64,000 nt of DNA from Candidatus Nanoarchaeia archaeon (GTDB taxonomy: Archaea > Nanobdellota > Nanobdellia > WJKC01). Below are positions 40,178 through 63,077 of the stretch, piece by piece. The notes under the pieces are model-generated. The model made no database searches. It saw only the letters and a program-made list of their open reading frames with translations, and was not told the origin of the DNA. Made by a program: the position numbers and the translations under genes. The stretch covers positions 125,632-189,631 of the forward strand of contig JBAZFG010000002.1 of the NCBI GenBank assembly GCA_041653515.1, read 5' to 3'. Each line of letters starts with the position of its first letter. Within the stretch, counting starts at the first letter, position 1.

Positions 40178-40339
40178 TGCCCCCGCAGTTTGGAATAAAC
40201 TTTTTTCAATAAGCAGGGGGATCAGGAAATGCCTAAAACTGAGGGGGATGTGCCCCCGCGGTTTGGAATAAACTTTTTTCAATAAGCAGGGGGATCAGGA
40301 AATGCCTAAAACTGAGGGGGATGTGCCCCCGCGGTTTGG
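40178..40339 (-). repeat. Tandem repeat, 73-bp unit x 2.2, each unit carrying one GC-hairpin element of the dispersed family
   Basis: Units start at 40178, 40251 and 40324 (tgcccccgc[a/g]gtttgg...) and are nearly identical. The array fills the aglB-to-GPT intergenic region, starting right after the aglB stop. Confidence 0.9.
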
Positions 40340-42958
40340 TTACCAGGCAGGACTGCCGTTATCAACCCATGGCATCATTGCAGTATAATTAATGTGATAA
40401 ATATTAATGTTGGTTGGGTCGTATTGTGATATTAATCCTCTTATGTTTAGTGAGTTACTTGAGTAGACTAATTCAAAACCAGGTATTGTTTCGTTCAATA
40501 AGTATAAGTGAGTCATGAAACGATCATTTAAGTCTGATGGGATGTGAATTAAGCCTCCTTCAATGAATTCAATACAAGAGTCAATGCCGTTAGTCTCATT
40601 AAAGTAAGTGCAGCCATTACCATAATCACAAACGCAATTGTATGGGTGAAGCGTGTTACTGCCCGTAGCTAAGTTATAAACTACTGCTTGTGGCTGACCA
40701 AAAGATTGGTCTTCAGCCATTGGTATTAAAACGTTTACTATGTAACTCTCGCCTTTAGGGAATAATACACCATCAATGATTGTGTCAGCGCCAACATAAC
40801 CTGGTGAGGCTAAGTAATTGAAAACTAGTAGTGTGCTGAATTGTTCAGGATTATACAAGTTATTATCCACTTGCTGGCTGTAAGTGTAAGGTGCGTAATA
40901 ACCTGGCCTGCCACCAATATTAGCCATCTGAACATATTTTAGTATATCATCATCCATGACTAATAAATAATTAGGCCTATTGCCTGTTTCATTATTCTTG
41001 AAGTAATCAAGTGAGTCATAAACCTCTGTCATGTTAAAGCCGCTAAACATTTGGCCGCCAATAACTTCATCCCATACTACTTGGAAGTTACCCCCATCAA
41101 CTGTTGTTGCCCGCTCGCCCATGGTTTGAACCCAGTAACCATAATCCCACCAATGAGTGAATACAGCGTTAGTGTCAGTGTTATTCCTAACCCAACTCAT
41201 TGATTCGCCCCAATCATTAGTGAAGCTTGGAATCATTGTTGAAGCATCTTCAACAATAACATAGTAACTCCATATTACTAATAGTATTGCGACTGCGTAA
41301 ATAGCTGTTGAGTAAACTTTATCACTTGTTATTTTGCTGATTAAATTATTTATCCGCTCAATAGCGTAAGCAGCTAATAACACGAATATTGGGGTGCTAG
41401 CAAAGACAATTCTTATTGCGCCCCTAGTTGCAATAACACTTAAAGCAAACCATAAGATGATTATTAGTTTACTTGGCGTTAACTCACCCCACTTACTGCT
41501 CTTATGGAATTTAATGTAAAATAATATTACTGTTAAAGCCAATAATGGCAGTGTTAGTAAGTAAGTGTTCTCAAAGAATAAATTAATTGCTTCATAACCG
41601 TTTAAGTTAACGAATTTGCTAAACATGAAGAATAAGATGAACACAGTAAACATTATCACTACTGATGTGGCTTTCTTGCCAAACTTACCTAATACTTCTT
41701 GAACTAATAATGCTCCACCAATAACAAATAATGGCACAAACCATTGAAGCCTATGCCACCAGTCAACCCCGTTAGGGTCATAGAACCATGGGGCTTGGTT
41801 TTCAGTAACTGAGACGCAGAAAGCACAAGTGCCAAAAGGGTTTAGTATTGTATCAAGAGCGCCTTGTAGTTTGGCGCCAACATCAAATAATCCAGTTAAT
41901 TGCATTACTGGCAGACCAACCATTATTAATACTGCCATCATTATTACGAAATAAAAATTATCAGGCCACTTCTTGTTCTTGATTAAGTTACTGATGAATA
42001 AATCATAAACAATTTTTAATCCAAGCACTAACGCTGTGATAGTTGGTATTAAGAACATATCAATCATGATTAAACCAAAACCATTATAGCGCAGGGTCAT
42101 TGTAGCGTTCATTAATATTATTGGGATGAACCACGCAAAGTAAGTGATTACGTTTTTATTGCTTAATTTACCCATTAAAGCAAGGAATAGGAATGCTAAG
42201 CCAATGCTGAAGAATAAGAAGTTAGCCCCACCCCAAGTCAGGCTTGATAAGCCAGCTAATACGCCTGATATTAACCCGTAAATTAATGCTTGTTTAGTCT
42301 TATTTGCCCTAATTGATTTGACTAATGCATAAATCATGCTAAACCAAAAGACTGTTGCAAGCGCTTCCTTATCACTAAACCCTGCCATGGTCCTGAATAA
42401 ATATGATGGGATTAATGATAAAAACGCTGTGGCAATTAACGCTGTTTTCTTGTTGAATATTTCTTTAGTCATTAAGAAAAAGAATATCATGCTTATTACA
42501 AACGCAACAACTGGGTAAATCATTGAATAACTCATTAGTTCGCCGCCAAATAATGGGTGAAATATTGTGTATAATCCTGCAACAAAGTAAGACACTAATT
42601 GGTGCTCCTTGAAAGTGCTAAAACCTTCTGGAAAATAACGAAATGAATCCATTTCAGGCAGGGTGCCCTGCTCCACTAGTGTTTCAGTGTAGCGGTAAAA
42701 AACATACGGGTCAAGACCAAGCAATAAACCATTGTATAATGGTATGCTTAGCATCCTAACCCAAGCCCCAACTAATATAATACTAATTAATGCTGCGTAT
42801 AATATTATCTTCTTATTTTCTTTGAGGAATTTTACTGCTTCGCCAAAATTAAGTTCATCCTCATCAGTGGTTGCTGGTTTTTTCTCTTTCTTATCACTGC
42901 TAAACCAGCCTTTAATCTTTCGCCCTATCTCCCCGAAATCAATTTCTTCATCACTCAA
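40340..42958 (-). CDS. aglB: Archaeal oligosaccharyltransferase AglB (STT3 family), long form
   Basis: Canonical HWWDYGYWVQ motif, first-loop GLDPYVFYRY, about 13 TM segments and a large C-terminal domain. Confidence 0.9.
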   Translation of the reverse strand: MSDEEIDFGEIGRKIKGWFSSDKKEKKPATTDEDELNFGEAVKFLKENKKIILYAALISIILVGAWVRMLSIPLYNGLLLGLDPYVFYRYTETLVEQGTLPEMDSFRYFPEGFSTFKEHQLVSYFVAGLYTIFHPLFGGELMSYSMIYPVVAFVISMIFFFLMTKEIFNKKTALIATAFLSLIPSYLFRTMAGFSDKEALATVFWFSMIYALVKSIRANKTKQALIYGLISGVLAGLSSLTWGGANFLFFSIGLAFLFLALMGKLSNKNVITYFAWFIPIILMNATMTLRYNGFGLIMIDMFLIPTITALVLGLKIVYDLFISNLIKNKKWPDNFYFVIMMAVLIMVGLPVMQLTGLFDVGAKLQGALDTILNPFGTCAFCVSVTENQAPWFYDPNGVDWWHRLQWFVPLFVIGGALLVQEVLGKFGKKATSVVIMFTVFILFFMFSKFVNLNGYEAINLFFENTYLLTLPLLALTVILFYIKFHKSSKWGELTPSKLIIILWFALSVIATRGAIRIVFASTPIFVLLAAYAIERINNLISKITSDKVYSTAIYAVAILLVIWSYYVIVEDASTMIPSFTNDWGESMSWVRNNTDTNAVFTHWWDYGYWVQTMGERATTVDGGNFQVVWDEVIGGQMFSGFNMTEVYDSLDYFKNNETGNRPNYLLVMDDDILKYVQMANIGGRPGYYAPYTYSQQVDNNLYNPEQFSTLLVFNYLASPGYVGADTIIDGVLFPKGESYIVNVLIPMAEDQSFGQPQAVVYNLATGSNTLHPYNCVCDYGNGCTYFNETNGIDSCIEFIEGGLIHIPSDLNDRFMTHLYLLNETIPGFELVYSSNSLNIRGLISQYDPTNINIYHINYTAMMPWVDNGSPAW

Positions 42959-42965
42959 TTTAACA

Positions 42966-43784
42966 TCATACTCCTAATGAAATGTAAACCTCTAATAATC
43001 CCCCGATTATTAATACAATGCTTGCAAGCACTATTAAATCAATGGAATCAAGTAATACCTCTTTAAATTTATTACTCTTAGGGTCATGCCTTATTACTGC
43101 TGCACTAATAATGCCTCCTGCAATGCCTGCGAGGAAGTAAGCAATTAATTCTGGCAGACCATGAACTAAGTAACGACCAAACCCTAGTGGCACTGCCTGA
43201 AAATAAGAAGACCAATTACTAATATTGGTTTTAATTGCGTTGCCAATAGCGACGCCGAGCACGCTTGAGTTCCACGTGATAATAAATATTGCGCCCGCCC
43301 CGTATAATAAGCTAAATATTAAGCAGAAGAGTAATACTTTGAAGTTATTGGCTAATATTATTTTTAATAAATCTGTTTGCACTGCATTGCCTTGAATGGC
43401 TGATGAGTTAATGCTTCTGATAGTGTTTATTTGCTCTGAGAATATTTTTGCGTTAAGGCTGTCAGGCATTATGACATACCATGTGGTGAATGTTATTAAT
43501 AATCCCATTGACATGAAGAATATTACGCCGAGCACATCTTTATGATTGCCAATTAAGGGGTATTGTTTTTTGGTGAAATCCTCTGATTCCTCTCGTTTTA
43601 GCACGTTAACTAGTAATGGCACGCCAGCCATTGTTGTAAGAAAAACCATACTTAATGACGGGTCTGATGGGAATAACCACATGCTGACTACTAAGCCAAG
43701 GCTCGCGTATATCACGCCTAATATTGTCATTTTCCAAGGCTTGGCTCTAACTTCTTTACTGCTTAATATTGACTCAAAAACCAT
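42966..43784 (-). CDS. Integral membrane protein, SpoIIM/DUF95-like
   Basis: Six or so TM segments. GLPELIAYFLAGIAGG resembles SpoIIM-family blocks. Assigned from memory only. Confidence 0.4.
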   Translation of the reverse strand: MVFESILSSKEVRAKPWKMTILGVIYASLGLVVSMWLFPSDPSLSMVFLTTMAGVPLLVNVLKREESEDFTKKQYPLIGNHKDVLGVIFFMSMGLLITFTTWYVIMPDSLNAKIFSEQINTIRSINSSAIQGNAVQTDLLKIILANNFKVLLFCLIFSLLYGAGAIFIITWNSSVLGVAIGNAIKTNISNWSSYFQAVPLGFGRYLVHGLPELIAYFLAGIAGGIISAAVIRHDPKSNKFKEVLLDSIDLIVLASIVLIIGGLLEVYISLGV

Positions 43785-44838
43785 TAATCACCTCTAATTT
43801 TCGGCTCCTGCCTTGGAATCCTTCGCCAGTATCAGTTGCTTTGATTAGTCCTTGTTTTCTTAATCGGTTAATGTAGCGCCTAAAACTCCTAATGCTTAAT
43901 TCGCCATGTATCTCGCGGTAATTCTTGTAAGCATCGCCGCTAATAATATTAGGGTTCTCTTTTATGATGTTAATTATTTTTTCTTCATGGTCGCTTAATT
44001 CCTGAGGTAAGTTAATAGTTATTGTCTTAATTGCTTCTTCAACGTGCTTGACTGTTATTTTCCTGCTAGCATCCCGCTCAGCCCTGCGTCCAGCTTCTAA
44101 TAATAAGTTGATTGCTTTCCTAACATCTGTGCCTGAATTAATACTTACTTCATGGACTACTCCTTCGCTTACAACACTTGGGTGGAACGCTTGTTTGGCC
44201 CTGCGTTCAATAATGTTTTTCATCTCGCGCGTAGTGTATGGCTTGAACTCCATGTTATTAAGGTTTAATCGCGACATTAATCGTGGTTCAATATAATTCT
44301 TGTACTTAGGGTTGTTAGTGACCATTAAGATGCATACCCGTTCTAAGTTTAGTAATGAGTATATTATGTCAAGGTCTTTTATTTTATCCACTTCATCAAG
44401 GCAGACTACTGCTCCTTTTTCCCTTAGTTTTCTCATCGCGTTATTAAGTATTTCTTCGGTCGGCACACCTTTAGGGGGATAGAGCATGCCTAATCGTCGC
44501 GCTATCTCTAAAGCTATTGTGTGAGTGGTCTGGCTTTCCCAGCAATTAATGAATACTGGTACAATATCGCTGGTCTCTTTTAATTCGTTAAAAATATATT
44601 TGATGCTCGCTGTCTTGCCAAGCCCAGGCATGCCGTGGATGAATACATTACTCCCTAAGCGATTTTGTAATAATGGTTTGATGAAACTAGCTATTTCTTT
44701 AATCTCATTGTCCCGTTCAGGCATTTCTTCTGGTTGGAATTTATAATCGAGAATAGTTTCATCCTTGAACAAAGTCTCGTTGTCCATCAGGATATCTTTG
44801 AATAAGCCCCCCATAATAGTAAGGGACACGCTAATCAT
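43774..44838 (-). CDS. cdc6: Orc1/Cdc6 replication initiator
   Basis: Walker A GMPGLGKT, Walker B VVCLDEVD and a C-terminal winged-helix region (RSFRRYINRLRKQGLI). Confidence 0.9.
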   Translation of the reverse strand: MISVSLTIMGGLFKDILMDNETLFKDETILDYKFQPEEMPERDNEIKEIASFIKPLLQNRLGSNVFIHGMPGLGKTASIKYIFNELKETSDIVPVFINCWESQTTHTIALEIARRLGMLYPPKGVPTEEILNNAMRKLREKGAVVCLDEVDKIKDLDIIYSLLNLERVCILMVTNNPKYKNYIEPRLMSRLNLNNMEFKPYTTREMKNIIERRAKQAFHPSVVSEGVVHEVSINSGTDVRKAINLLLEAGRRAERDASRKITVKHVEEAIKTITINLPQELSDHEEKIINIIKENPNIISGDAYKNYREIHGELSIRSFRRYINRLRKQGLIKATDTGEGFQGRSRKLEVINGF

Positions 44839-44860
44839 TATTAAAGGTTCCGATAATAAG

Positions 44861-44870
44861 TCTTAAATAA
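44861..44870. promoter_or_regulatory. TATA-like box tcttaaataa shared by cdc6 and the divergent ORF
   Basis: The centre (~44866) is 28 nt from ATG 44838 and 27 nt from ATG 44893. Confidence 0.4.
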
Positions 44871-44892
44871 TTGTTAAGCACAATAATTAATC

Positions 44893-45384
44893 ATGGCAAA
44901 GGAGTTTTCAGATAATTTAGGTGATAAAGCTAATGAGGATTATCAGCAAACACTTGAGATTATTTTTAGCTCAATTCTTGACCCATTGTTTGAGTTACAA
45001 AACGATGTTTTTGAGTTAAAGGGTTATGTGACTAATGTGCTGCCTGATTATATTAAAAAGTTAGTTACAACTGGTGTTGAAGAATTATACGTTAAAATAA
45101 TTGCATTCTTTAATGAGCGTGACCGAAAAATAAATGATTATTTTGACCAACAAAGAGGTCAGATTAATCAGCCAACTAATATTCCTGTTAATAGTTATGT
45201 TGTAGGTAACACTGCTATTGGTTTTAAGACGCTTGATGATTTAACCCCGCCACCGCCGCCTAAGAAGCTTGATCAATCATTTGAGAGTTCTATGTGTGAA
45301 GTAAAAAATAAACAGGATACTGTTCGTAAAAATATTATTGATGAATTAAAAGAATTGTTTACTAAGCGCGGCCCAATTGATTAA
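44893..45384 (+). CDS. Hypothetical protein (helical, with a PPPPP tract)
   Basis: Intact ORF with a TATA-like box at the expected distance. No recognisable domain. Confidence 0.4.
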   Translation: MAKEFSDNLGDKANEDYQQTLEIIFSSILDPLFELQNDVFELKGYVTNVLPDYIKKLVTTGVEELYVKIIAFFNERDRKINDYFDQQRGQINQPTNIPVNSYVVGNTAIGFKTLDDLTPPPPPKKLDQSFESSMCEVKNKQDTVRKNIIDELKELFTKRGPID

Positions 45385-45848: not shown

Positions 45849-45877
45849 TAATTGTTTCTTTTTATTATCTTATATAC

Positions 45878-46393: not shown

Positions 46394-46444
46394 ATTCTTT
46401 ATTACCCATAATCTTTTTTATAACAATTACTGTCCTACAATCCC

Positions 46445-48443: not shown

Positions 48444-48469
48444 ACCATTAATCTTTCTTTTTTCTTTTA

Positions 48470-53556: not shown

Positions 53557-54126
53557 TTGATGAAAAAAGTTGCTTTGGTTGACTGGGGTAAGGGTGTTAC
53601 TGGTTTAGATGGGTTGCCTGCGTTCCTGGCTGATATTTTTCCAGTTAAAGCTTGCGATGACGTTCTTAAAGTCAGGCAATTATTAACAAAGCCTTTTAAT
53701 CACTGGCTTAAATCGCTTGACTCTAAGATTTGCCGTGAGTACAGCGACGTTATTGGTGTGGCGTTAATGCCTTACGTACCTAGCACAAAGGCGTTGTATG
53801 GCAATAATTTTGATAACGCTTCATTAATCCTTAATATTGCTGTTAATTCACATAATTATAATGGTTCGTTAATCTCAATTGACGTTAATACTATTGGGCC
53901 TGACCGCGCCAAAACGATTAGTATTCATGAGTTATTTGAGGTCTTTCATGGCCGGCATGAGACTCATGATGGCCGGGGCCAGCCTTGCGCTAATAATGGT
54001 GACTTGAGTAAATTAAGTTTTTGCTGCAGTCTTGAGAACACGCTTAATTATATTGATTCATTAAGCCCTTTCTTGTGCGGTCATTGTGATTATAAAGTTA
54101 AAAAGTCACGATTAATTGATTATTAA
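53557..54126 (+). CDS. Divergent archaemetzincin-like putative Zn protein (tentative)
   Basis: HELFEVFHGRHETH...C...CC...CGHC resembles the archaemetzincin HExxHxxGxxH + Cys4 layout, but the second His position is Glu. Confidence 0.3.
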   Translation: MMKKVALVDWGKGVTGLDGLPAFLADIFPVKACDDVLKVRQLLTKPFNHWLKSLDSKICREYSDVIGVALMPYVPSTKALYGNNFDNASLILNIAVNSHNYNGSLISIDVNTIGPDRAKTISIHELFEVFHGRHETHDGRGQPCANNGDLSKLSFCCSLENTLNYIDSLSPFLCGHCDYKVKKSRLIDY

Positions 54127-55597
54127 TCACTGCGTATAATTCTTTAGCATTATTATGTAATTGTTTTATTATTGCTGATACGTAATCAATACTGCTTATT
54201 ACTTCTTTTTTGTTTATTTCAAGTACTCGCATTTCCTCTGCGTTCCTGAAACCAAATCCCCTTCCTTCGCGGAATATTGGTGCAATGAATACTTCGTTTT
54301 CATTAAGGCCTGGGAGTACTTTGTTTGTTATTCCAATTGTTGTTCCAAGGTATTTTCTTGCAAATTCTTCGTTAATTAATACTGATGTTGTTTGATTAAT
54401 TCTCTCGCTTATTTCATTTAGGCTTTTGTTTCTAAGAACCATTTCACTTTTGAATTTTTGAGGCAGGCCAATCACAAAAGTACCTTTTGTTGCGATTGGT
54501 ATTTTTTCAATTCCAGTGCATTTATTATTCTTGAAAAATAGTCGTAGTAATCCCTTGCTGCTATTGAATGCAAGGACGTTTTTATCTGACCTTTTTTTTA
54601 TGTAATTGGGTTTACTGCTTAAGTAATCCTTGAATAATTCATTTATTTTTTTATCTGTCATTGGGTAAAAATTTATTCTTTCATATTCATCCGGATTAAT
54701 GCCACTTTCATTAATAGTTATTCTTTTATAATCACTTATGATTATTTTTTTTGCTTTCATTATTTCTTTGATGAATTCTACTTTCAATAAGTTCTCATCT
54801 AATTTGTTTGTGTAAGCTTCAAGCCATGCCGGCCTGAAGTCAATACTTAATGGTTTGCTGTCAGTGACTTGTATTACTATGTCCTGGCTTTTGTAATTGA
54901 ACATGAACAAGTTTTTCCATTCGCGCCAGCCAGTCTTGATTAGTAATTCGCTGATAGATTGGCCTGGGCTGAGTTCGTAAGAATAAGGGTTTATTCGCCT
55001 GACTGTTGCTGGTTTAGTGGTTGATTCTGTCATCACTGTTTTAGTTTCTTGTTTTGGCAGTTTCTGCGGGTATAATCCTACTTGCGCTACTGCCGCGCCC
55101 GCTTCATTATCCTGGTTTAATAATTTGTTAAGCACTAATTTTAGGAAACCATAAGCTTTTGTTTCTGTTATTTTTTCTTTGAATAATTGTTTCACTTCAT
55201 TGTTAATGCCTGTTTTCTTGAATGTGTTTTTTAATTCATTAATAAGTGTTTTTGAGTAATGCTCAAACATGAATTCATTGTAGTATTTGCTGAAGAAAAT
55301 ATTATCCTGGTTTAAGTCCTTAAGTGAGTTAATTGCTTTTAGTGTTTTGAAGTCATTGGTGTTAAAAATCTTCTTGCGTCTCATTGAGTGAAGTATTTTT
55401 TCTTCAACAATTTTTTGCTTAGCAGGGTTCATAACAGTGTTGGCTATCCTGATAAGCCATTTGAATAAGTTGTAATTAATTGAGTTGTTTGAAAGGTTTT
55501 TTAATTGCTCGGCTGACGCATTAATGATGGTGATTAATTCTTCATTACTTAAATTAAGACTGCTCTTCCTGCTGTTAAACCTGAAGTTAACTATCAT
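54098..55597 (-). CDS. Hypothetical protein (499 aa, AT-rich)
   Basis: Long intact ORF. No recognisable domain. Confidence 0.5.
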   Translation of the reverse strand: MIVNFRFNSRKSSLNLSNEELITIINASAEQLKNLSNNSINYNLFKWLIRIANTVMNPAKQKIVEEKILHSMRRKKIFNTNDFKTLKAINSLKDLNQDNIFFSKYYNEFMFEHYSKTLINELKNTFKKTGINNEVKQLFKEKITETKAYGFLKLVLNKLLNQDNEAGAAVAQVGLYPQKLPKQETKTVMTESTTKPATVRRINPYSYELSPGQSISELLIKTGWREWKNLFMFNYKSQDIVIQVTDSKPLSIDFRPAWLEAYTNKLDENLLKVEFIKEIMKAKKIIISDYKRITINESGINPDEYERINFYPMTDKKINELFKDYLSSKPNYIKKRSDKNVLAFNSSKGLLRLFFKNNKCTGIEKIPIATKGTFVIGLPQKFKSEMVLRNKSLNEISERINQTTSVLINEEFARKYLGTTIGITNKVLPGLNENEVFIAPIFREGRGFGFRNAEEMRVLEINKKEVISSIDYVSAIIKQLHNNAKELYAVINNQLIVTF

Positions 55598-55621
55598 ATA
55601 ATTGATTTAGCATTTTTTTGT

Positions 55622-56797: not shown

Positions 56798-56823
56798 TGA
56801 TTAATCTTTAAGTATTTTAATGC

Positions 56824-57300
56824 TTAAATAATATATTTCTCAAACAAGTTGCCTGGTCCTTTACTTGTTTTATAAAGCGTGTGTTTTTTTAGCCAATTAA
56901 TTAAGTTCATAGTTTTCTTATTATTAGTTAAGTGCAAGCCCCATGTTGATGGGTCACAAATGTATTCTTCTTCTTGATAAGTAAATTTATTCCAAACGTG
57001 ACTTAATGGTTCATTAAAGAACTCATTTGTAAGTAAGTAATTTCTGCCTTCAATGATTTTATTGTAAGCTTTACCCATTATCATAATTGTTTTAAATTGT
57101 TTATTCTCTGATAAGACGTTGTTTAGGAATTGTGCGAAGTGATTGCATAAACCTCCTTTATTTATGAATTCATTAGTGGTGGTTTCCCAATTATTTGGCG
57201 CGCAATAAGGGATATTAGCAATCGTTTCTTCAAGAAATAATTCTAATTCCTTTATGTTATTTATTTTTTTATGATAAGTGTTGTCAATTATATCATTCAT
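56824..57300 (-). CDS. Small transglutaminase-like (Cys-His-Asp) fold protein (tentative)
   Basis: GGLCNHFAQFLNNVL ... SHVWNKF ... ICDPS matches the order and spacing of the C/H/D triad of transglutaminase-like peptidases. Confidence 0.4.
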   Translation of the reverse strand: MNDIIDNTYHKKINNIKELELFLEETIANIPYCAPNNWETTTNEFINKGGLCNHFAQFLNNVLSENKQFKTIMIMGKAYNKIIEGRNYLLTNEFFNEPLSHVWNKFTYQEEEYICDPSTWGLHLTNNKKTMNLINWLKKHTLYKTSKGPGNLFEKYII

Positions 57301-57336
57301 GTTAAATTAACTTTTTTTTAGTATTTTTAAAGTTTT

Positions 57337-57488
57337 TTAGAAATCACTGAGTTTTTTCTGCTTAGTCCCTAACCGCAGGGAGGGGTGACCCCTCCCTTCA
57401 GTTTTAGGGTAATCCTGATTCCCACCCCCCTACGATTGTAATTATGCCAGAGACATGTTAGAAATCACTGAGTTTTTTCTGCTTAGTC
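57337..57488 (+). repeat. GC-hairpin element copy A (57368-57457), bracketed by 31-bp direct repeats (57337-57367 and 57458-57488)
   Basis: ttagaaatcactgagttttttctgcttagtc occurs twice, identically. The right copy is the last 31 nt (stop codon included) of nucS. The core aaccgcagggaggggtgacccctcccttcagttttagggtaatcctgattccc lies at 57371-57423. Confidence 0.85.
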
Positions 57489-58210
57489 TTATCAACTATG
57501 TTCCTGTTTGGTGGTTCTACTTGGCAGAACTTAAAGCTCCAGTCATGGAGCATTTGTTCAGCGTTCTTAGTGATGCCTGGCGCTGCGATGTAACCAATGA
57601 CTTTGTCAATTCCTTTAGCTGCCTTGATTCTCTCAACGTAGCGCCTTAGTTGTTGGACCGCGCTAAGCCCGGCAGTCACTCGCTTACACTCAATAATTAT
57701 TAATGCTCCTTCACCATCATGGCCCATCACGTCAATAAAACCATATTTTGTTTGTTCTTCAAGGCTGACTGGCCTAAAGTCAATGCTAATAATATGTGGG
57801 TGCTCATAAATCATGCGCGCCATGTCAGCTTCACTGCCCATAATCATTACTTCTTCATCATCGCTTAGTTGGCCTGAGATTAGTAAGTCAATGCTGGTTA
57901 TTTTAATGACCATTTGTTCTCTTGGGTTGATTGATTCAGCAGTGATGAATAATGAGTCGCCAGCTTCAACCCTGATGCTCGCGCCTTCTTTTATCCAGTT
58001 AACTGGGTTCCTGCCTGTTGGTTTGTGAACTAATAGTGTTTTGTCTGTTTTGATGGTGACTGCCCTGCCGCCCCGCTCGAGCTTTGAGTAAGCCCTGCCT
58101 TCATACTTAACCTCGCACTCGCAGTAAAGTGTGATTAACTCGTTTCGCTTGAGTGCTTGGTCTAATACGTTCTTGGTTGTATCAAAATCAGGTTTAACAT
58201 AATTGCTCAT
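57458..58210 (-). CDS. nucS: NucS/EndoMS mismatch-specific endonuclease
   Basis: C-terminal RecB-like nuclease block IDVMGHDGEGALIIIECKR...AVQQLRRYV; 250 aa. Confidence 0.85.
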   Translation of the reverse strand: MSNYVKPDFDTTKNVLDQALKRNELITLYCECEVKYEGRAYSKLERGGRAVTIKTDKTLLVHKPTGRNPVNWIKEGASIRVEAGDSLFITAESINPREQMVIKITSIDLLISGQLSDDEEVMIMGSEADMARMIYEHPHIISIDFRPVSLEEQTKYGFIDVMGHDGEGALIIIECKRVTAGLSAVQQLRRYVERIKAAKGIDKVIGYIAAPGITKNAEQMLHDWSFKFCQVEPPNRNIVDKTKQKKLSDF

Positions 58211-58239
58211 CTAATTCTTTATCTCGATACACATATAAA

Positions 58240-58647
58240 TTGATTTTGTTATCTTTATTATTCATGGAAGTTATTGTTGACATTTTTGATCCTAGCAAAC
58301 AGGAGTTCATTATTGGTGACCGTAGATTACCAAGCTACTTTGTTGGTAATGTAATTGGTCATTTAAAGGGTTATAAATTGTTAGGGGATGATAGTGTCCA
58401 GCAGATGCTTCCGTTACTTAATGAAATTGAATTAAATATGTATAAAACGCTTGATGATAAAACTACTCAATTAAGATTCTTGGCTTCTAAGCTGGTTGAG
58501 AAATTAACTTTTTTTGGCTCATATGACGAGCGAGTTATTATCTTAGAGGATTTCATTAACTCTGAATGTGATATGTATGTTAAGAAATTAAGGATTGATG
58601 ACCAGACTAAGAAAGAGTTAAAGCGCTTAATGGCTCTTACTCGATAA
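58240..58647 (+). CDS. Hypothetical protein
   Basis: Intact ORF. The likely start is the ATG at 58264, which places a TATA-like box (58233-58240) ~27 nt from both divergent starts. Confidence 0.4.
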   Translation: MILLSLLFMEVIVDIFDPSKQEFIIGDRRLPSYFVGNVIGHLKGYKLLGDDSVQQMLPLLNEIELNMYKTLDDKTTQLRFLASKLVEKLTFFGSYDERVIILEDFINSECDMYVKKLRIDDQTKKELKRLMALTR

Positions 58648-61456
58648 GTATTCCTGGTTTGCATGGCATTGCTTTCGGGTTATCTGCTTTGACTACATCA
58701 ACTTCTGTGTTATACTCTTGTTCAAGGAATTTGATTGCTTCGTTTAGTGATTGGTACTCACCATTCCTGTCTGGCGCGCTTAATGGCACGCGGCTTGGGT
58801 TCCTGATTAATGACTGGATGATGCCTGTCGCGTCCTTGGCGTGAGCTTTGACTGAAGCGTTCTTTAAGGCATTAGTAATTAATTCTTTTAAGTCATGCTT
58901 GTTCTTTGACTTAACCACTGATTTGTATAAGTCATACTTCCATTGGTCAGCGATGAATAATGTTATCTTTTTTGGTTTTGTTTTTATTATGCTTAATAAA
59001 CCATTAATGTCCTTGATTGTGTTCATTATTATTGATTCGTTCTGCTCAATTGATTGGTTAATCATTGATTCATTGATTTTTGGGAATCGGGCTAGTGAGA
59101 CAAACCCTTTGTTAATTTTGCTCCAAGCCTCCTCGCAGATGTGGGGTATTAATGGCTCGAGTGCTATCAGCCAGTCAGCTAGGAAAGTCCTGATTACACT
59201 ATTAAATTGTTGCGCGCTCACTCTTTTCTTGTAGTAGTTAAGCTCGTTCATGAACTCAAAGAAAATGTTAATTGCGTAAGGCCTAATCATGATATTACAT
59301 CCCTGCTCGTAAGCTTCTTTTATTCTTGAGTAAAAACGGCTGGTAATCCACTTGTCGATGCTGGTTAATTTCTTGGCTGGCAGCGCTTTACTTGCTGTCA
59401 GCACTAGATTAGCAAAATTAGTTATTTTTGTTTTGACGCTGGCAACCTCGTTCTCGCGCCAGTCAACTACTGAGTCAATGTCGCTTGAGCTTAATAAGAA
59501 CATTCTTAGTAAGTCAGCGCTGTACTTTTCAGCTACTTCAGCTAATGGTATAACGTTGCCTTTGCTCTTACTCATCTTAACCCCTTCGCGGATGACCATT
59601 TCGTTGAAACTTATTTCTTTTGGCCAGTACTTTTTGGGGAATATCTTGGTGTGGTGGAATAAGAAGAATGTTAGGTGGTTGCTGATGTGTGCTGGCGCAG
59701 TGTGGCGGTGGTCAAGTGGGTACCAATAAGTGAAATCTTCACGCATCTCACGCGCCCATTTAACTTTAAACTCACCTTTACCTAGGAATACATAATCAAA
59801 TAATTCAGGGGTTAATTGTTCTGGTTTTATTTTCTCGCGGTGAATAATGTTAATGATTGTGTAAAATGCCATGTAAATCGTTGAGTCGCTTAAGCTTTCA
59901 ATAACCCACTTGTCATCATAAGGCAGTTTTGTGCCTAAGCCTCTTTTGCGCGCGCAAGGTCTTTTCTCAAGCCAGTCAACCGTGTCAATGAATGACTTGC
60001 GGTACTTGTCAGGTATTATTGTCATATCATTAATTAATCTTCTAGTCTTGTCTTTCCATTCTTTGCTTGTGTAATCAAGGAACCATTGATCGTTAAGCAC
60101 TGCCACTATTACCTTGCCAGTGCAACGGCACTCAGCTTTGCGGCTGGTCTCGTAGAATGTGAAAGCGTCGCCTTGGCTTATTAGTTTGTTCCTGACACGG
60201 TCTTTAATTTCATTTATCTTGAGTCCTTTGAATTCAGCGCACTTTTCATTAAGCACTCCTTTGTAGAATTCATCTTTGTAAACCCTCTTGGTTGCTTGTT
60301 CTATTAGTTCCTTGTTGCGTTGGTTTTTAACGCCTAATTTGTTAATCATTTCAACTGCAGGTTCATTGCTGTAACCCTCAATGTTAATGATTGTTATTGG
60401 CTTAATTGACTTGATTTCCTTACTGTCAAGCCCGTAATCAGTTATGCCCTTGCTATCATTTTGCAAGTCTCTTAATGCTGCGTAATCAAACGGTGCGTGG
60501 GCTGGCACTGAGTAAACAATGCCTGTGGCCACGTCTGGGTCAACGAACTGACCTGGAAGTATTGGTACTTCAGTTCCTAATGGGGTGGTGACGTGTTTGC
60601 CTATTAGCTCTGTGCCAGCTAGTTCCCTTGTTTTCTTTAATCCTGTTTGCTGGTATTTTAATTTGTTGAATGCTTCAACGCTTATGATTAAGTTATTATT
60701 AGTCTCAACGTACAATGATTCAGGGTTAACCCATAAGTTAGTAATGCCATAAATTGTTTCAGGCCTTAGTGTACCTGCTACTAATTGTTTGCTGCCTAAA
60801 TCGAATTTGATTGCAGTGAACTCATTAATGCTTACTTTATCAGCGTCACCATCCTTAATATCATCCTCGCCAACAGCGTTGTCACAGTTAACACAGAAAT
60901 TAATTGGGTAACTACCCTGGGTTAATGCTTTGCCTTGTTTTAGTTTTTTAAACTGCCATTCAATAAATTTATTGTACTCTTTGTCGCCAGTGGTGAATTG
61001 TCTTGTCCAATCAACGCTGACCCCAATACTCTCAAAGTCTTGTCTGATAACGCTGGCGAAGTGCTTGGCAACGTTCATTGGTTCCTTGAATGACTCAATT
61101 ATCTTCTTGACTTTACTTTCATCTTTTTCTCTTAAGCGGACGTAATTAGTGAATAACTCGATGTAATTCTTATCACCTTTCCTTATGCGGTCGCTGATAG
61201 CTAATATTGGCGTGCCTGAGATGTGATAAGCCATGGGCCATAAGACATTATAACCTTGCTTTCGCTTGAAGCGCGCAATGAAGTCGCCGATACTGTAAGT
61301 CCTGCCGTGGCCAATATGGTAAGGGCCACTGGTATATGGGTATGGTACTGTGAAGAAATACTTCTTGCCTGTTTTTTTGGGCTCAAAGATTTTATCCTTA
61401 ACCCATTGCTTCTGCCACTTACGCTCTATTTTAGATAAATCCATCTTGTTAATCAC
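58637..61456 (-). CDS. leuS: Leucyl-tRNA synthetase (archaeal type)
   Basis: HIGH motif PYHIGHGRTY, KMSKSKGN, and a CP1 editing-domain insertion. The likely start is the ATG at 61444 (MDLSKIERKWQ). Confidence 0.95.
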   Translation of the reverse strand: MINKMDLSKIERKWQKQWVKDKIFEPKKTGKKYFFTVPYPYTSGPYHIGHGRTYSIGDFIARFKRKQGYNVLWPMAYHISGTPILAISDRIRKGDKNYIELFTNYVRLREKDESKVKKIIESFKEPMNVAKHFASVIRQDFESIGVSVDWTRQFTTGDKEYNKFIEWQFKKLKQGKALTQGSYPINFCVNCDNAVGEDDIKDGDADKVSINEFTAIKFDLGSKQLVAGTLRPETIYGITNLWVNPESLYVETNNNLIISVEAFNKLKYQQTGLKKTRELAGTELIGKHVTTPLGTEVPILPGQFVDPDVATGIVYSVPAHAPFDYAALRDLQNDSKGITDYGLDSKEIKSIKPITIINIEGYSNEPAVEMINKLGVKNQRNKELIEQATKRVYKDEFYKGVLNEKCAEFKGLKINEIKDRVRNKLISQGDAFTFYETSRKAECRCTGKVIVAVLNDQWFLDYTSKEWKDKTRRLINDMTIIPDKYRKSFIDTVDWLEKRPCARKRGLGTKLPYDDKWVIESLSDSTIYMAFYTIINIIHREKIKPEQLTPELFDYVFLGKGEFKVKWAREMREDFTYWYPLDHRHTAPAHISNHLTFFLFHHTKIFPKKYWPKEISFNEMVIREGVKMSKSKGNVIPLAEVAEKYSADLLRMFLLSSSDIDSVVDWRENEVASVKTKITNFANLVLTASKALPAKKLTSIDKWITSRFYSRIKEAYEQGCNIMIRPYAINIFFEFMNELNYYKKRVSAQQFNSVIRTFLADWLIALEPLIPHICEEAWSKINKGFVSLARFPKINESMINQSIEQNESIIMNTIKDINGLLSIIKTKPKKITLFIADQWKYDLYKSVVKSKNKHDLKELITNALKNASVKAHAKDATGIIQSLIRNPSRVPLSAPDRNGEYQSLNEAIKFLEQEYNTEVDVVKADNPKAMPCKPGILIE

Positions 61457-61545
61457 TTATTAACTCCTCTTTTTTTAACGTTGCGTAATTATTATCGCAT
61501 TATTTTTTTAAGATTTTTCCCAAGAAGACTTTAAATAATCCTAAT

Positions 61546-62748
61546 GTGTGTTCATTATTCATGCGCAATAATCTTAATAATTTCTTTGTTGAGCGCGTGA
61601 AGCACTTTAAGCACATGGCTTCATTATCCAATACTTTTTTCTTTTACTTGTTCGCCTGGGGTCTAGTCACGCCAATATTTAATATTCATATTAATGAAGT
61701 GACTAATTCACTTTTCTTGTCCGGCATTATCTTTTCTGTGTTTGGTTTTGCTAGAATATTTTTTGACCCGTCAATCGGTTTGTTATGCGACCGCGTTAAC
61801 CCTAAGAGATTATTGCAGGGTAGTCTATTGTCTTATACATTAATATTTTTCTTATACACGATTGCTAATAATTTTTATTTATTATTAATCGTGCGAGTAT
61901 TGCACGCAATTGCTTGTGCCATGCTCTGGATTTCTGGTTGGACTTTAGTTAGATTAAAGAGTAAAGGTAATTCTGCTCAGGAAGAGATTAGTGTTTGGTA
62001 CTCAGTTCAGTACATTGCTTATGTTATTGCTCCTTTAATTGGTGGCTCGTTGATAACAATGTTTTCGTGGCAACCTGTTTATTACTTAGCGTCAATAACT
62101 GCTTTTATTGCTTTTGTTTACGCTTCAATTAATGTTAAGAGTGTTCATACAAGTAATAATAGTAAGAAGCGGTTTAGGGATTTATGGCACCAGTTCTTCA
62201 TAAATAAATCATCATCAATTAGGCTAGTATTATTAACATTCCTTGAAATATTAATCGTGATTGGTTTCTATGAGTTCATGCCATTATTATTAGATCAGGC
62301 TGGGCTTAATATTGAGGAGATTAGCGTTGTGTTTGCTTTGGCTTATACTACCCCATTTATTTTATTCCCAGTAATTATTGGAGTTATTAGTGATAAGTAT
62401 GGTCGCAAAATACCAACTGCTATTGGTTTGATAATCATTAGCTTTGGGTTATTATTGTTCTGCAACGCCAGTACTTTTACTCAATTCCTGTTTTATACTT
62501 TCATTATTGTTACTGGTGATGCGTTTGTTAACTTAAGTTTTAACGCAGAGCTTAATGATATGACACCAAAAAACAGTGCTGGTGGTTTTACTGGTATTTT
62601 TGAGATGATTAAGGATTTGGCTGTGGCCATCGGCCCGTTGTTAGTTGGTGTTTTAAGTGCTGTAACTAATATTTCATTTGCTTTTATAATAATGAGTGTG
62701 ATGTCATTAGGCACTATATTAGTGCTTAAAGGGTTTAAGAATTTCTAA
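61546..62748 (+). CDS. MFS transporter
   Basis: Twelve TM segments. Motif A-like GLLCDRVNPKR and GVISDKYGRK in the two halves. The likely start is the ATG at 61561. Confidence 0.8.
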   Translation: MCSLFMRNNLNNFFVERVKHFKHMASLSNTFFFYLFAWGLVTPIFNIHINEVTNSLFLSGIIFSVFGFARIFFDPSIGLLCDRVNPKRLLQGSLLSYTLIFFLYTIANNFYLLLIVRVLHAIACAMLWISGWTLVRLKSKGNSAQEEISVWYSVQYIAYVIAPLIGGSLITMFSWQPVYYLASITAFIAFVYASINVKSVHTSNNSKKRFRDLWHQFFINKSSSIRLVLLTFLEILIVIGFYEFMPLLLDQAGLNIEEISVVFALAYTTPFILFPVIIGVISDKYGRKIPTAIGLIIISFGLLLFCNASTFTQFLFYTFIIVTGDAFVNLSFNAELNDMTPKNSAGGFTGIFEMIKDLAVAIGPLLVGVLSAVTNISFAFIIMSVMSLGTILVLKGFKNF

Positions 62749-62791
62749 AAGCAAGCCTTAAAAAGTAATTAATTCTTTTCTAAATATTAGT

Positions 62792-62935
62792 GGGCCCGTA
62801 GCGCAGTTTGGATAGCGCGACAGGCTTCTACACTCGACGCTTCGCGTCTCGTTCCGTCCTTCGGACGGCCGCTCGCTTAAAACGAGCGGGGGTGAGGATA
62901 CCTGTAGGTCGTGGGTTCAAATCCCTCCGGGCTCG
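62792..62935 (+). tRNA. tRNA-Arg (anticodon UCU) with a 69-nt intron at the canonical 37/38 position
   Basis: Acceptor GGGCCCG/CGGGCTC, D arm GCGC-agtttggata-GCGC, anticodon stem ACAGG/CCTGT with loop ct-TCT-a, T arm GTGGG-ttcaaat-CCCTC. Exon 1 is 62792-62830, the intron 62831-62899 and exon 2 62900-62935. No encoded CCA. Confidence 0.85.
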
Positions 62936-63077
62936 CACGAAAACCGCAGGGAGGGGAGACCCCTCCCTTCAGTTCATCTCCTGATTCCCACCTCCTTGAC
63001 AATTTGCGCCAGGGGTGCTGAAATATTAATCTGCACGAAGTTTTGGATGATTAGTCCAATTTACTCCGGGCTCACAC
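62925..63077 (+). repeat. GC-hairpin element copy B, bracketed by the tRNA 3' end and a 13/14-nt copy of it
   Basis: ctccgggctcgcac (62925-62938) is repeated as ctccgggctcacac (63064-63077). The core aaccgcagggaggggagacccctcccttcagttcatctcctgattccc lies at 62942-62989. Confidence 0.8.

What the first reader, a model, noticed from the sequence alone, without database searches (positions are those of the whole stretch)
40178..63077. Dispersed family of GC-hairpin elements (4 copies at 3 loci) abutting gene 3' ends, with hairpin covariation
Three loci share a ~50-55 nt core. Copy A (57371-57423, + strand) reads AACCGC-AGGGAGGGG-tga-CCCCTCCCT-TCAGTTTTAGGGtaaTCCTGATTCCC. Copy B (62942-62989, + strand) reads AACCGC-AGGGAGGGG-aga-CCCCTCCCT-TCAGTTcatcTCCTGATTCCC. 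Copies C1 and C2 (complements of 40287-40337 and 40214-40264) read AACCGC-GGGGG-cacat-CCCCC-TCAGTTTTAGGcattTCCTGATCCCC. The flanks AACCGC, TCAGTT(TTAGG) and TCCTGAT(T)CCC are conserved. The stem sequence differs (9 bp versus 5 bp) but stays self-complementary. That is the pattern expected for a structured RNA or protein-recognised hairpin, not for chance similarity. A and B remain alignable for ~30 more nt (acc[c/t]cc..ac[g/a]att..gccag). All copies are strongly GC-rich islands in AT-rich intergenic DNA. All sit within a few nt of a gene end (aglB stop, nucS stop, tRNA discriminator). Candidate roles, all inference: a MITE-like or miniature integrative element, a 3'-end processing or termination module, or a small ncRNA.
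Basis: partly seen in the sequence, partly recalled or inferred. Interest (0 to 1): 0.8.

Follow-up and report, generated by a model that had tools for sequence, protein, structure and literature searches.

The report
Mobile hairpin element doubling as tRNA intron
The four GC-rich hairpin copies are recent insertions of a short mobile DNA element found across tiny DPANN archaea, and the same element also sits inside tRNA genes as an intron, so it may show how archaeal tRNA introns spread.

Summary
In detail: four copies at three loci, with none expected by chance. They are not conserved 3' UTRs. Close relatives have empty sites at all three loci. Copy A carries an exact 31-bp target-site duplication of the nucS 3' end. 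Copy B carries a decayed ~24-30-bp duplication of the tRNA-Arg 3' end. Copy C is a 2.2-unit head-to-tail array with no duplication.

The same ~55-nt core occurs in more than 114 loci, almost all in DPANN archaea, several per genome. Neighbours are housekeeping genes, in any orientation. No transposase, integrase or reverse transcriptase was seen nearby in the ORFs that were screened.

The core folds on the reverse strand as AACUG-A-[variable stem]-G-CGGUU, with strong covariation. A third segment mirrors the stem base by base, which suggests a triple helix.

About a third of copies have flanking repeats of 12-60 bp. One end is fixed (CNG+AACCGC) and the other varies. There are no terminal inverted repeats.

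About a quarter to a third of copies lie in or beside tRNA genes. At least 10 split a T-loop, and removing the insert in silico restores a tRNA.

Best reading: a new non-autonomous mobile element. Its spread by target-primed copying from the hairpin end is inferred, not shown.

The parts
57368..57457 (+). Copy A: a 90-nt inserted element, written in AACCGC-to-tail orientation. The strand that folds is the reverse strand.
   Evidence: The core matches the family model at 65.7 bits, E = 6e-15. The element is absent from the orthologous site in L118, whose NucS is 90% identical. No copy was found in L119 or L121 either.
57337..57367 (.). Copy A, left copy of the 31-bp target-site duplication. It is a detached repeat of the last 10 codons plus stop codon of nucS.
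   Evidence: It is a perfect 31-nt direct repeat of 57458-57488. The empty site in L118 shows that a single copy is ancestral.
57458..57488 (.). Copy A, right copy of the duplication. This is the real 3' end of nucS, which runs on the - strand.
57371..57403 (-). Long hairpin P1 of copy A, read on the reverse strand as AACUG-A-AGGGAGGGG-loop-CCCCUCCCU-G-CGGUU.
   Evidence: Inverted repeat of 16 nt at 88%. It appears in the minimum-free-energy fold: -31.2 kcal/mol on the reverse strand against -22.9 on the + strand. Family covariation is shown.
57420..57430 (+). Copy A 'third segment', TCCCACCCCCC, which mirrors the 3' arm CCCCTCCCT.
   Evidence: The mirror rule holds across the family. Copy A matches at 8 of 9 positions.
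62939..63053 (+). Copy B: an inserted element of about 115 nt that starts 3-4 nt after the tRNA-Arg discriminator base.
   Evidence: Model match at 47.6 bits, E = 2e-10. The orthologous tRNA-Arg(TCT) genes in L119 and L121 are followed directly by AT-rich DNA with no element.
62915..62938 (.). Copy B, left copy of the duplication. It runs from the T-loop to the 3' trailer of the functional tRNA-Arg.
   Evidence: A 30-nt repeat at 77% identity, with a 14-nt core (CTCCGGGCTCGCAC / CTCCGGGCTCACAC) differing at one base.
63054..63083 (.). Copy B, right and decayed copy of the duplication. It keeps the ancestral ending CGGGCTCA.
   Evidence: The relatives' tRNAs end in CGGGCTCA.
62792..62936 (+). 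tRNA-Arg(TCT) with a 69-nt intron at the canonical position. This is the target gene of copy B; its intron is not a member of the element family.
   Evidence: Rfam tRNA model, 49.7 bits. ARAGORN with the intron option.
40267..40339 (-). Copy C, unit 1: a full 73-nt unit that starts directly after the aglB stop codon.
   Evidence: Model match at 60.5 bits. Tandem period of 73 nt.
40194..40266 (-). Copy C, unit 2: a full 73-nt unit, head to tail with unit 1.
40178..40193 (-). Copy C, unit 3: truncated after 16 nt (CCAAACTGCGGGGGCA), inside the hairpin loop.
   Evidence: The relatives L123 and L125 have only 36 and 34 nt between aglB and the next gene. The window has 198 nt, which equals 36 nt plus the 162-nt array. 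No sequence like this 16-mer is visible in the two empty-site intergenic spacers, so it belongs to the insertion.

Best explanation
SHOWN. The four copies belong to a family of short (about 45-240 nt), non-coding, non-autonomous mobile insertion elements, found almost only in DPANN archaea. The window comes from a 'Candidatus Nanoarchaeia' metagenome-assembled genome. The elements entered these three sites after this lineage split from its sequenced relatives. Insertion duplicates a variable stretch of target DNA, 0-60 bp with a median of 26. This leaves a gene end or tRNA end intact, which is why the copies appear to abut gene ends. The conserved ~55-nt core is a structured handle. On the reverse strand it forms a long hairpin (AACUG-A-variable stem-G-CGGUU, followed by 3 nt CNG). 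A purine run further upstream mirrors the stem.

INFERRED MECHANISM. The element spreads by copy-and-paste through a single-stranded intermediate of reverse-strand polarity, most likely RNA. Copying is primed at a nick in the target and starts at the fixed ...GCGGUU-CNG end, as in target-primed reverse transcription of SINEs. The far end is variable. A second, loosely placed nick produces the variable duplication. Jumping from one template to the next produces head-to-tail arrays whose last unit aborts inside the hairpin. The enzyme acting in trans is unknown.

Shown for location, inferred for splicing: tRNA genes, especially the T-loop, are preferred landing sites. When the element lands there without a duplication, it persists because the host splicing endonuclease can remove it as an intron.
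For: Insertion status. Empty orthologous sites exist for A, B and C. No copy was found in 66 kb of syntenic DNA from relatives.

Family size. More than 114 loci, almost all DPANN, several per genome, with genome-specific tails. Extra diverged copies appear near known ones.

Duplications. 43 of 123 copies have a flanking repeat of 12-60 nt whose left copy ends 0-10 nt before AACCGC (most often at -3). Only 3 of 112 displaced-flank controls reach the same score. The repeats differ from locus to locus.

Fixed end. The trinucleotide before AACCGC is CCG, CTG, CCA or CGG in 106 of 123 copies.

Minimal copies. Elements of 54-62 nt are just the core.

Arrays. Head-to-tail arrays or single units followed by a unit cut off in the hairpin occur in window copy C, L001, L088 and L104.

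Structure and strand. 96.9% of stem cells are paired, and 101 cells carry changes on both sides, against 29.5 +/- 6.3 in shuffles. Non-Watson-Crick stem pairs number 14 A.C against 3 G.T on the + strand, and the invariant basal pair is U.G only on the reverse strand. The reverse strand also folds better.

tRNA link. Removing the insert in silico restores an ARAGORN-callable tRNA in 10 loci. A canonical bulge-helix-bulge geometry with a 4/4 central helix is seen in L020, L111, L022, L033, L080 and L060.

Not a regulatory module. There is no orientation bias relative to genes.
Against: No reverse transcriptase or any other recurrent mobility gene was found next to copies or among the 20 window ORFs screened against Pfam. 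No longer autonomous version was seen.

The search pattern required the core, so truncated copies lacking the core could not be counted. The 'fixed end / variable end' asymmetry is therefore partly a result of how copies were found.

The T-loop is a breakpoint next to either end of the element: compare window copy B with L054. A simple one-nick-first model does not predict this.

If the mirror repeat forms a purine-motif triplex on the reverse strand, established knowledge says DNA forms it more readily than RNA. That would favour a single-stranded DNA intermediate over RNA.

About two thirds of copies show no clear duplication.

The one apparent case of co-mobilised flank (L040a/b) turned out to be a segmental duplication.
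Confidence: 0.5

Rival explanations
1. A DNA transposon-like miniature element. It would be cut or copied as DNA and pasted by an unknown trans-acting nuclease or recombinase, possibly one that recognises hairpin loops in single-stranded DNA. This enzyme would make widely and variably staggered breaks.
For: Target duplications and empty sites. Both the target breakpoints (T-loop, anticodon loop) and the truncation points of partial units (hairpin loop) lie in loops of stem-loops. The mirror repeat fits a purine-motif DNA triplex on the reverse strand.
Against: There are no terminal inverted repeats. No known transposase family makes duplications ranging from 0 to 60 bp (established knowledge). 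No transposase or HUH-nuclease gene recurs near copies. The element is absent from IMG/VR viral contigs.
Confidence: 0.22
2. Primarily a tRNA intron. It would spread at the RNA level, by mis-ligation or reverse splicing of the excised intron into other RNAs by the splicing endonuclease and RtcB ligase. Reverse transcription and recombination would then fix it in the genome. Intergenic copies with duplications would be by-products.
For: At least 17 copies split tRNA T-loops or anticodon loops without a duplication, in the tRNA sense orientation, with the fixed end at or near the 3' splice site. Subfamilies carry 3' adaptors (UGAG, UGGG) that pair with the universal T-loop sequence UUCR. The same intron sits in six different tRNA 3' ends of one genome, AUK256.
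Against: A recombination route should not create 12-60-bp duplications of non-tRNA targets, such as the nucS 3' end. Window copies A and C are antisense to, or outside, any RNA that could plausibly carry a bulge-helix-bulge motif. Bulge-helix-bulge geometry is poor in several loci.
Confidence: 0.12
3. Remnants or miniature derivatives of integrase-borne integrative elements. The flanking repeats would be attL and attR sites.
For: Direct repeats of 13-60 bp covering tRNA 3' ends are typical of archaeal integrated elements (PMC3293823). Some long repeats are imperfect.
Against: The repeats are different at every locus, so there is no common att core. No integrase was found nearby. Elements as short as 54 nt are complete. 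The empty site of copy C has no att-like sequence, and copy C has no repeat. There are no long-range repeats.
Confidence: 0.05
4. A conserved functional RNA or cis-regulatory module, such as a terminator, 3'-end stabiliser or small RNA gene, kept at gene ends by selection rather than by mobility.
For: Deep conservation of the core and strong structural covariation across phyla. The copies are GC-rich islands in AT-rich DNA.
Against: The element is absent from orthologous loci of close relatives. All four gene-orientation classes are about equally frequent. Target duplications are present. Copy numbers and tails are genome-specific. No Rfam family matches.
Confidence: 0.03

Closest known systems
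Transposed bulge-helix-bulge tRNA introns of Thermoproteales (Fujishima et al. 2010, as summarised in PMC4090602)
   Same: [quoted passage not shown] The review states that the mechanism is unknown and presumes it acts at the DNA level.
   Different: Here the same element also occurs outside tRNA genes, with long target duplications and verified empty sites. It has a ~55-nt core conserved across phyla. It occurs in DPANN rather than Thermoproteales. No such core or duplication is mentioned in the two papers read here.
SINEs / non-LTR retroposons (target-primed reverse transcription)
   Same: Short and non-coding, with variable-length target duplications, one defined end and one variable end. 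Head-to-tail joins are explicable by template jumping. A structured end could serve as the recognition handle. Some families prefer tRNA genes as targets.
   Different: No A-rich or LINE-shared tail. No internal promoter is known. No reverse transcriptase partner was found. This class is not described in archaea (own knowledge). Membership is therefore not claimed.
MITEs (for example Sulfolobus SM1-SM4; own knowledge)
   Same: Small, non-autonomous, multi-copy, flanked by duplications, and located between genes.
   Different: No terminal inverted repeats, and the duplication length is not fixed. No parent IS element was seen.
IS200/IS605-derived PATEs and REP/RAYT elements (own knowledge)
   Same: A conserved hairpin in which structure rather than sequence is conserved, strand-specific, and probably recognised in single-stranded form.
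   Different: Those elements insert without target duplication, next to a fixed tetra- or pentanucleotide. Here duplications of up to 60 bp are present and there is no fixed target motif.
Integrated archaeal viruses and plasmids in tRNA genes (SSV-type and pNOB8-type integrases; PMC3293823)
   Same: Direct repeats of tRNA 3' parts flank the insert, and the tRNA is reconstituted.
   Different: There is no integrase, no common att core, inserts are as short as 54 nt, and non-tRNA targets also occur.
Intramolecular triple helices (H-DNA and 'paperclip' triplex oligonucleotides; RNA triplexes such as the MALAT1 3' end; own knowledge)
   Same: The order purine arm - loop - pyrimidine arm - linker - mirror pyrimidine segment is the classic design of a single-strand triplex.
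   Different: Triplex formation is untested here. No mobile element is known to me to use such a fold.

Membership tests
MITE | Terminal inverted repeats | tested here: not met
   The best inverted match between the first and last 22 nt of 43 repeat-delimited copies scores 3-8. Random 22-mer pairs score a mean of 4.1, with a 95th percentile of 6.
MITE | Target-site duplication of fixed length | tested here: not met
   Flanking repeats are 12-60 nt (median 26) in 43 copies, and absent at window copy C.
MITE | A related autonomous IS element with the same ends | tested here: inconclusive
   No protein family recurs near copies (at most 6 of 108 loci, all housekeeping), and there are no long-range repeats. 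Only 8-kb flanks were available, not whole genomes.
SINE / target-primed retroposon | Variable-length target duplications and empty sites | tested here: met
SINE / target-primed retroposon | Defined 3' end with a variable or truncated 5' end | tested here: inconclusive
   There is a fixed CNG+AACCGC end and variable tails of 0-190 nt, and arrays end in a truncated unit. However, the search required the core, so the asymmetry is partly an ascertainment effect.
SINE / target-primed retroposon | RNA intermediate and a reverse transcriptase partner | not testable with these tools
   No reverse transcriptase was seen in the 20 window ORFs screened or among the recurrent neighbour families that were annotated. 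No transcript data and no whole genomes were available.
Archaeal bulge-helix-bulge (BHB) tRNA intron | Interrupts a tRNA gene, and its removal restores a cloverleaf | tested here: met
   Met for related loci only, not for the window copies. The loci are L020, L111, L033, L080, L029, L061, L068, L092, L077 and L076. Copies at the canonical intron position are L063, L046 and L030.
Archaeal bulge-helix-bulge (BHB) tRNA intron | BHB motif at the exon-intron junctions | tested here: inconclusive
   The geometry T-stem / 3-nt bulge / 4-bp helix / 3-nt bulge has 4/4 pairs in L020, L111, L022, L033, L080 and L060. It has only 0-3 of 4 pairs in L029, L076, L061, L068, L092 and L077. The canonical-position cases are unclear.
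Archaeal bulge-helix-bulge (BHB) tRNA intron | Cleaved by the splicing endonuclease and absent from mature tRNA | not testable with these tools
   This needs RNA-seq or an enzyme assay.
Integrase-mediated integrative element | A common att core shared by element and targets, and an integrase gene | tested here: not met
   Repeats differ at every locus. The empty site of copy C lacks any att-like sequence. No integrase was found.
IS200/IS605 PATE or REP element | Insertion without duplication at a fixed short target motif | tested here: not met
   A 31-bp duplication is verified at copy A. Junction sequences are varied.
Casposon / CRISPR-like Cas1 integration | Terminal inverted repeats, ruler-like fixed duplication, and a cas1 gene | tested here: not met
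   There are no terminal inverted repeats and the duplication length varies. No recurrent neighbouring gene was found.
Terminator / 3' UTR module | Fixed orientation downstream of genes, and conservation at orthologous loci | tested here: not met
   Orientation classes are about equal. Orthologous loci are empty.
Any Rfam 15 family | A match at the gathering threshold | tested here: not met
   Only the tRNA model matches in the window. The best hits over copy A have E >= 1.

The most novel reading that the evidence does not exclude
This would be the first recognisable mobile form of archaeal tRNA introns. It is a DPANN-wide, SINE-like element that copies itself into DNA from a structured single-stranded intermediate, and it is tolerated inside tRNA genes because the splicing endonuclease removes it. 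Its core would be held together by an intramolecular triple helix (stem plus mirror strand), a fold not known to me in any mobile element. If so, archaeal tRNA introns at non-canonical positions are insertion scars of such elements, and the unknown enzyme that moves them is a new kind of archaeal mobility machinery.
Probability: 0.3. Interest if true: 0.92.

Novelty: new variant of a known kind. Interest (0 to 1): 0.8.

Why it matters
How archaeal tRNA introns reach new positions and new tRNA genes is an open question. [quoted passage not shown] A 2012 study says there is 'no direct evidence' linking disrupted tRNA genes to mobile elements (PMC3293823).

This family provides one sequence that appears in two forms. 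It occurs as a T-loop or anticodon-loop insert in tRNA genes. It also occurs as a free insertion with target duplications and verified empty sites. That makes the question testable by transcriptomics, enzyme assays and comparative genomics.

It also adds a widespread repeat class to DPANN genomes, which are small and thought to be poor in mobile DNA. It explains assembly breaks in these metagenome-assembled genomes. The three-way covariation points to a possible natural intramolecular triplex.

Tried and rejected
- **Known RNA families.** Rfam at the gathering threshold and at permissive E-values gave only the tRNA.
- **Default ARAGORN.** It misses the intron-bearing tRNA; the intron option is needed.
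- **Autonomous partner.** All-against-all clustering of 1,750 neighbouring ORFs found no family in more than 6 of 108 loci, and the top families are housekeeping genes such as aminoacyl-tRNA synthetase, Trm5, FEN1, FtsZ and EndA. A search for long-range repeats up to 9 kb found none.
- **Viral origin.** The IMG/VR scan gave one chance hit with no hairpin.
- **Strain polymorphism.** Exact-protein look-ups returned only Logan contigs from the same sample, and these break at the elements.
- **Subfamily-specific metagenome scan.** Zero hits. A broader scan gave 8 loci.
- **CRISPR-like reading.** I considered that the L050-family repeats might be a CRISPR array. They are a 54-nt tandem repeat into which the element inserted.
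- **RNA-processed ends.** L040a looked like a retro-copy ending at the RNase Z site. Alignment showed it is a segmental duplication of the whole locus.
- **Alternative Watson-Crick helix for the third segment.** The mirror run is longer than the best alternative helix in 46 of 100 cases and equal in 26.
- **Bulge-helix-bulge at canonical-position copies.** The minimum-free-energy fold and manual pairing were not convincing.
- **Heuristic T-arm finder.** It gave many AT-rich false positives, so only GC-rich TTCRA cases were kept.
- **Literature search.** Searches by sequence string and by topic found no description of this element.

Full report
**1.

The pattern AACCGC-gap-TCAGTT-gap-TCCTGAT matches four times in the window: 40221-40263(-), 40294-40336(-), 57371-57419(+) and 62942-62985(+). 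It matched 0 times in 100 shuffles. A covariance model built later from 97 family members recovers exactly these four copies (E = 6e-15 to 2e-10) and nothing else in 64 kb.

- STT3/AglB at 40340..42958(-).
- NucS at 57458..58210(-).
- tRNA-Arg(TCT) with a 69-nt intron at 62792-62936.

**2.

- **Copy A.** A perfect 31-nt repeat (57337-57367 and 57458-57488) brackets a 90-nt element. The right copy is the true end of nucS: its last 10 codons plus the stop codon.
- **Copy B.** A 30-nt repeat at 77% identity (62915-62944 and 63054-63083) covers the tRNA-Arg from the T-loop into the trailer.
- **Copy C.** This is 2.2 head-to-tail units of 73 nt (40178-40339). The last unit stops after 16 nt, inside the hairpin loop.

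**3. All three loci are insertions**

- **Copy A.** In L118, whose NucS is 90% identical, the nucS stop codon is followed directly by the spacer and the start of the next gene. In the window the same junction holds the 90-nt element plus the second copy of the 31 nt, after which the spacer resumes. This is a textbook filled site versus empty site, with a 31-bp target-site duplication.
- **Copy B.** The orthologous tRNA-Arg(TCT) genes of L119 and L121 are followed by AT-rich DNA with no element. The decayed right repeat in the window still ends in CGGGCTCA, as the relatives' tRNAs do.
- **Copy C.** L123 and L125 have 36 and 34 nt between aglB and the next gene. The window has 198 nt, which is 36 nt plus the 162-nt array. 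Nothing like CCAAACYGCGGGGGCA is visible in the two empty-site intergenic spacers. The truncated third unit therefore arrived with the insertion, and copy C has no detectable duplication.
- The model finds no copy in 66 kb of syntenic DNA from these relatives.
- The window comes from a 'Candidatus Nanoarchaeia archaeon' metagenome-assembled genome.

**4. The family is large and almost entirely restricted to DPANN archaea**

Nearly all are Micrarchaeota, Aenigmatarchaeota, Altiarchaeota, Nanoarchaeota, Iainarchaeota and unclassified archaea, often with several loci per genome. About six bacterial hits lack the hairpin and look like chance.

Copies within one genome share a tail after the core. 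For example, CSMAG_931 has eight copies and AUK256 has six. This is what a repeat amplifying inside a genome looks like. The model finds further diverged copies close to known ones. The element is absent from IMG/VR viral contigs apart from one chance hit. A second metagenome scan added eight loci, including a 54-nt element with a 31-nt duplication (L127) from the same subfamily as copy C.

**5. Structure of the core**

On the reverse strand the conserved 'flanks' pair with each other. AACUG pairs with CGGUU, then comes a 1x1 A/G loop, then a variable upper stem. The main measurements are:

| Measure | Result |
|---|---|
| Stem cells that are paired (12 pairs, 97 distinct sequences) | 96.9% |
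| Cells with changes on both sides | 101, against 29.5 +/- 6.3 in shuffles (0 of 500 shuffles reach it) |
| Pairing when the register is slid | falls to 36-60% |
| Non-Watson-Crick stem pairs (+ strand reading) | 14 A.C against 3 G.T |
| Fold energy of copy A | -31.2 kcal/mol on the reverse strand, -22.9 on the + strand |

An A.C on the + strand is a G.U wobble on the reverse strand. The invariant basal pair is likewise U.G only on the reverse strand. The structure therefore forms in one strand, of reverse polarity.

**6. A three-way covariation**

The segment right after TCCTGAT mirrors the 3' arm of the stem base by base. Examples are GGGGGAGG / CCTCCCCC / CCCCCTCC, AGGGAGGGC / GCCCTCCCT / TCCCTCCCG and AGGGGA / TCCCCT / TCCCCT.

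- G-run length in the stem and C-run length in this segment correlate (Spearman 0.80).
- A stem A after the G run is matched by T in 39 of 41 cases.
- Parallel identity is 0.93, against 0.78 +/- 0.01 when partners are shuffled.
- The mirror run is longer than the best possible alternative Watson-Crick helix in 46 of 100 sequences and equal in 26.

Proteins do not read mirror repeats, and ordinary helices cannot form between them. The physically sensible reading is an intramolecular triplex. In favour of the reverse strand: the variants A-for-T and C-opposite-A.C are all legal triples there (G.G-C, A.A-T, T.A-T). This is inference; no tool here tests triplexes.

**7. Insertion signature across the family **

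- 43 of 123 copies have a flanking repeat scoring at least 12 whose left copy ends 0-10 nt before AACCGC, most often at -3. Only 3 of 112 displaced-flank controls reach that score.
- Repeat lengths are 12-60 nt, with a median of 26.
- Element lengths are 45-242 nt. The shortest are the bare core.
- The three bases before AACCGC are CCG (53), CTG (21), CCA (18) or CGG (14). They belong to the element and mark a fixed end.
- Terminal inverted repeats are absent: scores of 3-8, against a random mean of 4.1.
- The repeats are unrelated from locus to locus.
- Full unit(s) followed head to tail by a unit cut off in or near the hairpin occur in window copy C, L001, L088 and L104.
- One family (L050 and relatives) sits in a pre-existing 54-nt tandem repeat, so its 'repeats' are not target duplications.

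**8. Context**

Neighbouring genes are ordinary housekeeping genes. No protein family recurs in more than 6 of 108 loci. All four orientation classes relative to flanking genes are similarly frequent. Among the 20 window ORFs checked there is no reverse transcriptase, integrase or transposase.

**9. The tRNA connection**

Roughly a quarter to a third of copies touch a tRNA gene. ARAGORN alone places 20 of 121 within 250 nt of one.

- **T-loop duplications.** The break often lies in the T-loop, and the duplication runs to a few nt past the tRNA 3' end (L054, L057, L060, L076, L093, L096, L017).
- **T-loop splits without duplication.** In many more loci the element, in tRNA-sense (reverse-strand) orientation, splits the T-loop with no duplication. 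In AUK256, copies of the same element abut the T-loop and 3' end of six different tRNAs; the full interrupted gene could be read in L111 and L020.
- **Restoration test.** Deleting the insert in silico restores an ARAGORN-callable cloverleaf with a UUCRAAU T-loop in L020, L111, L033, L080, L029, L061, L068, L092, L077 and L076.
- **Adaptor subfamilies.** Subfamilies with a short 3' adaptor (UGAG, UGGG, UGGA) can be drawn as a canonical bulge-helix-bulge motif: T-stem, 3-nt bulge, 4-bp helix with UUCR, 3-nt bulge. Pairing is 4/4 in six loci. Others score only 0-3 of 4.
- **Canonical-position copies.** Three copies lie at the 3' end of introns at the canonical position (L063, L046, L030). L133 has an inverted pair of copies in an anticodon-loop insert.
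- **Other placements.** Some copies sit just after a tRNA 3' end (window copy B, L006, L086, L098, L103, L110). Others sit just before a tRNA 5' end (L070, L109).

**10. Mechanism**

Shown: these are DNA insertions of a non-coding, structured, multi-copy element, with variable target duplications and one fixed end.

Inferred: copying starts at the fixed hairpin end on a single-stranded template and is primed by a nick in the target. A loosely placed second nick sets the duplication length (0-60 bp). Jumping to a second template gives head-to-tail units, and the last unit aborts in the GC hairpin.

This is how target-primed reverse transcription behaves (established knowledge of non-LTR elements and of group II/R2 reverse transcriptases). 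It accounts for more of the anatomy than any transposase or integrase model.

Weak points:
- No reverse transcriptase was found.
- The search required the core, which biases the view of which end is fixed.
- The T-loop is a breakpoint next to either end of the element.
- A purine-motif triplex would favour DNA over RNA.

I therefore put 0.5 on the combined statement. Most of the doubt lies on the RNA step.

**11. Comparison with known systems**

The element behaves like a SINE but is not shown to be one. It is not a MITE, an IS200/IS605 derivative, a casposon or an integrase-borne element, because defining features of each were tested and not met. In part of its copies it is, by position and geometry, a tRNA intron.

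The closest described phenomenon is the 'large-scale intron transposition' of Thermoproteales, whose mechanism the literature read here calls unknown. Searches by sequence string and by topic found no description of this element. The library is incomplete, so prior description cannot be excluded.

**12. Verdict**

The finding is confirmed and extended. It is a new variant of known kinds of element (short non-autonomous mobile elements and transposing tRNA introns) with unusual features. It could be categorically new if the mechanism or the triplex is borne out.

Noticed in passing
window 62792-62936; L119 2490-2640(-); L121 5736-5818(-): The same tRNA-Arg(TCT) has one 69-nt GC-rich intron in the window, apparently two introns in L119 and none in L121. 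This shows fast intron gain and loss among close relatives. ARAGORN without the intron option misses the window gene entirely.
   Followed up: partly
window 1-6000: GC content is 27-30% here, against 35-45% elsewhere in the window. The region holds two very large ORFs: 1701..4430 (909 aa, no Pfam hit) and 4427..7279 (950 aa, only a faint GT-C hit). It may be a foreign or fast-evolving cell-surface glycosylation island.
   Followed up: partly
window 12863-14770 and 40340-42958; 181-1704 and 36946-38328: There are two STT3/AglB-like oligosaccharyltransferase paralogues and two B12-binding radical SAM paralogues in one 64-kb window that is rich in glycosyltransferases.
   Followed up: no
L115, L116, L117 (Logan contigs of SRR18595300): Short-read contigs from the same organism end exactly at the element or its duplication. 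The repeat therefore breaks assemblies. This is indirect evidence of multiple near-identical copies in this genome.
   Followed up: partly
L050 5096-5311 (also L062, L081, L101, L114): A 54-nt tandem repeat (GGGCAAAAGGTTCCCAAAACCCTGAG...) occurs in a Bilamarchaeaceae genome. The element has inserted into it several times. The nature of the repeat (coding or satellite) is unknown.
   Followed up: partly
L133 11220-11480: An insert in a tRNA anticodon loop is made of one full element in tRNA-sense '+' orientation plus an inverted, hairpin-only partial copy. The fixed ends of both face the two splice sites.
   Followed up: partly
L126, L132, L106 (left flank of the element): Three loci share the same GC-rich flank (GGCCATGCACGCGCCTGCAGTCCA) next to the element. 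This is either an orthologous old insertion or insertion into an unidentified structured RNA gene.
   Followed up: no
L040 4340-4640 and 5740-6040: The whole unit (tRNA-Leu 3' part, element, duplicated tRNA fragment, downstream flank) is duplicated 1.4 kb away, and the tRNA part of the second copy has decayed. This is a segmental duplication, not a new insertion.
   Followed up: yes
element end, all copies (e.g. window 57368-57376): On the reverse strand the fixed end reads GCGGUUCNG. This resembles the 5' half of a tRNA T-arm (stem GCGG plus UUCG). Together with a 12-15-bp hairpin and a 3-nt tail, it looks like a tRNA minihelix. It is unclear whether this is mimicry or a relic.
   Followed up: no
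window 54098-55597 and 56824-57300: The 499-aa and 158-aa ORFs have no Pfam match. The 158-aa gene sits directly downstream of nucS and appears to be conserved in L118.
   Followed up: no
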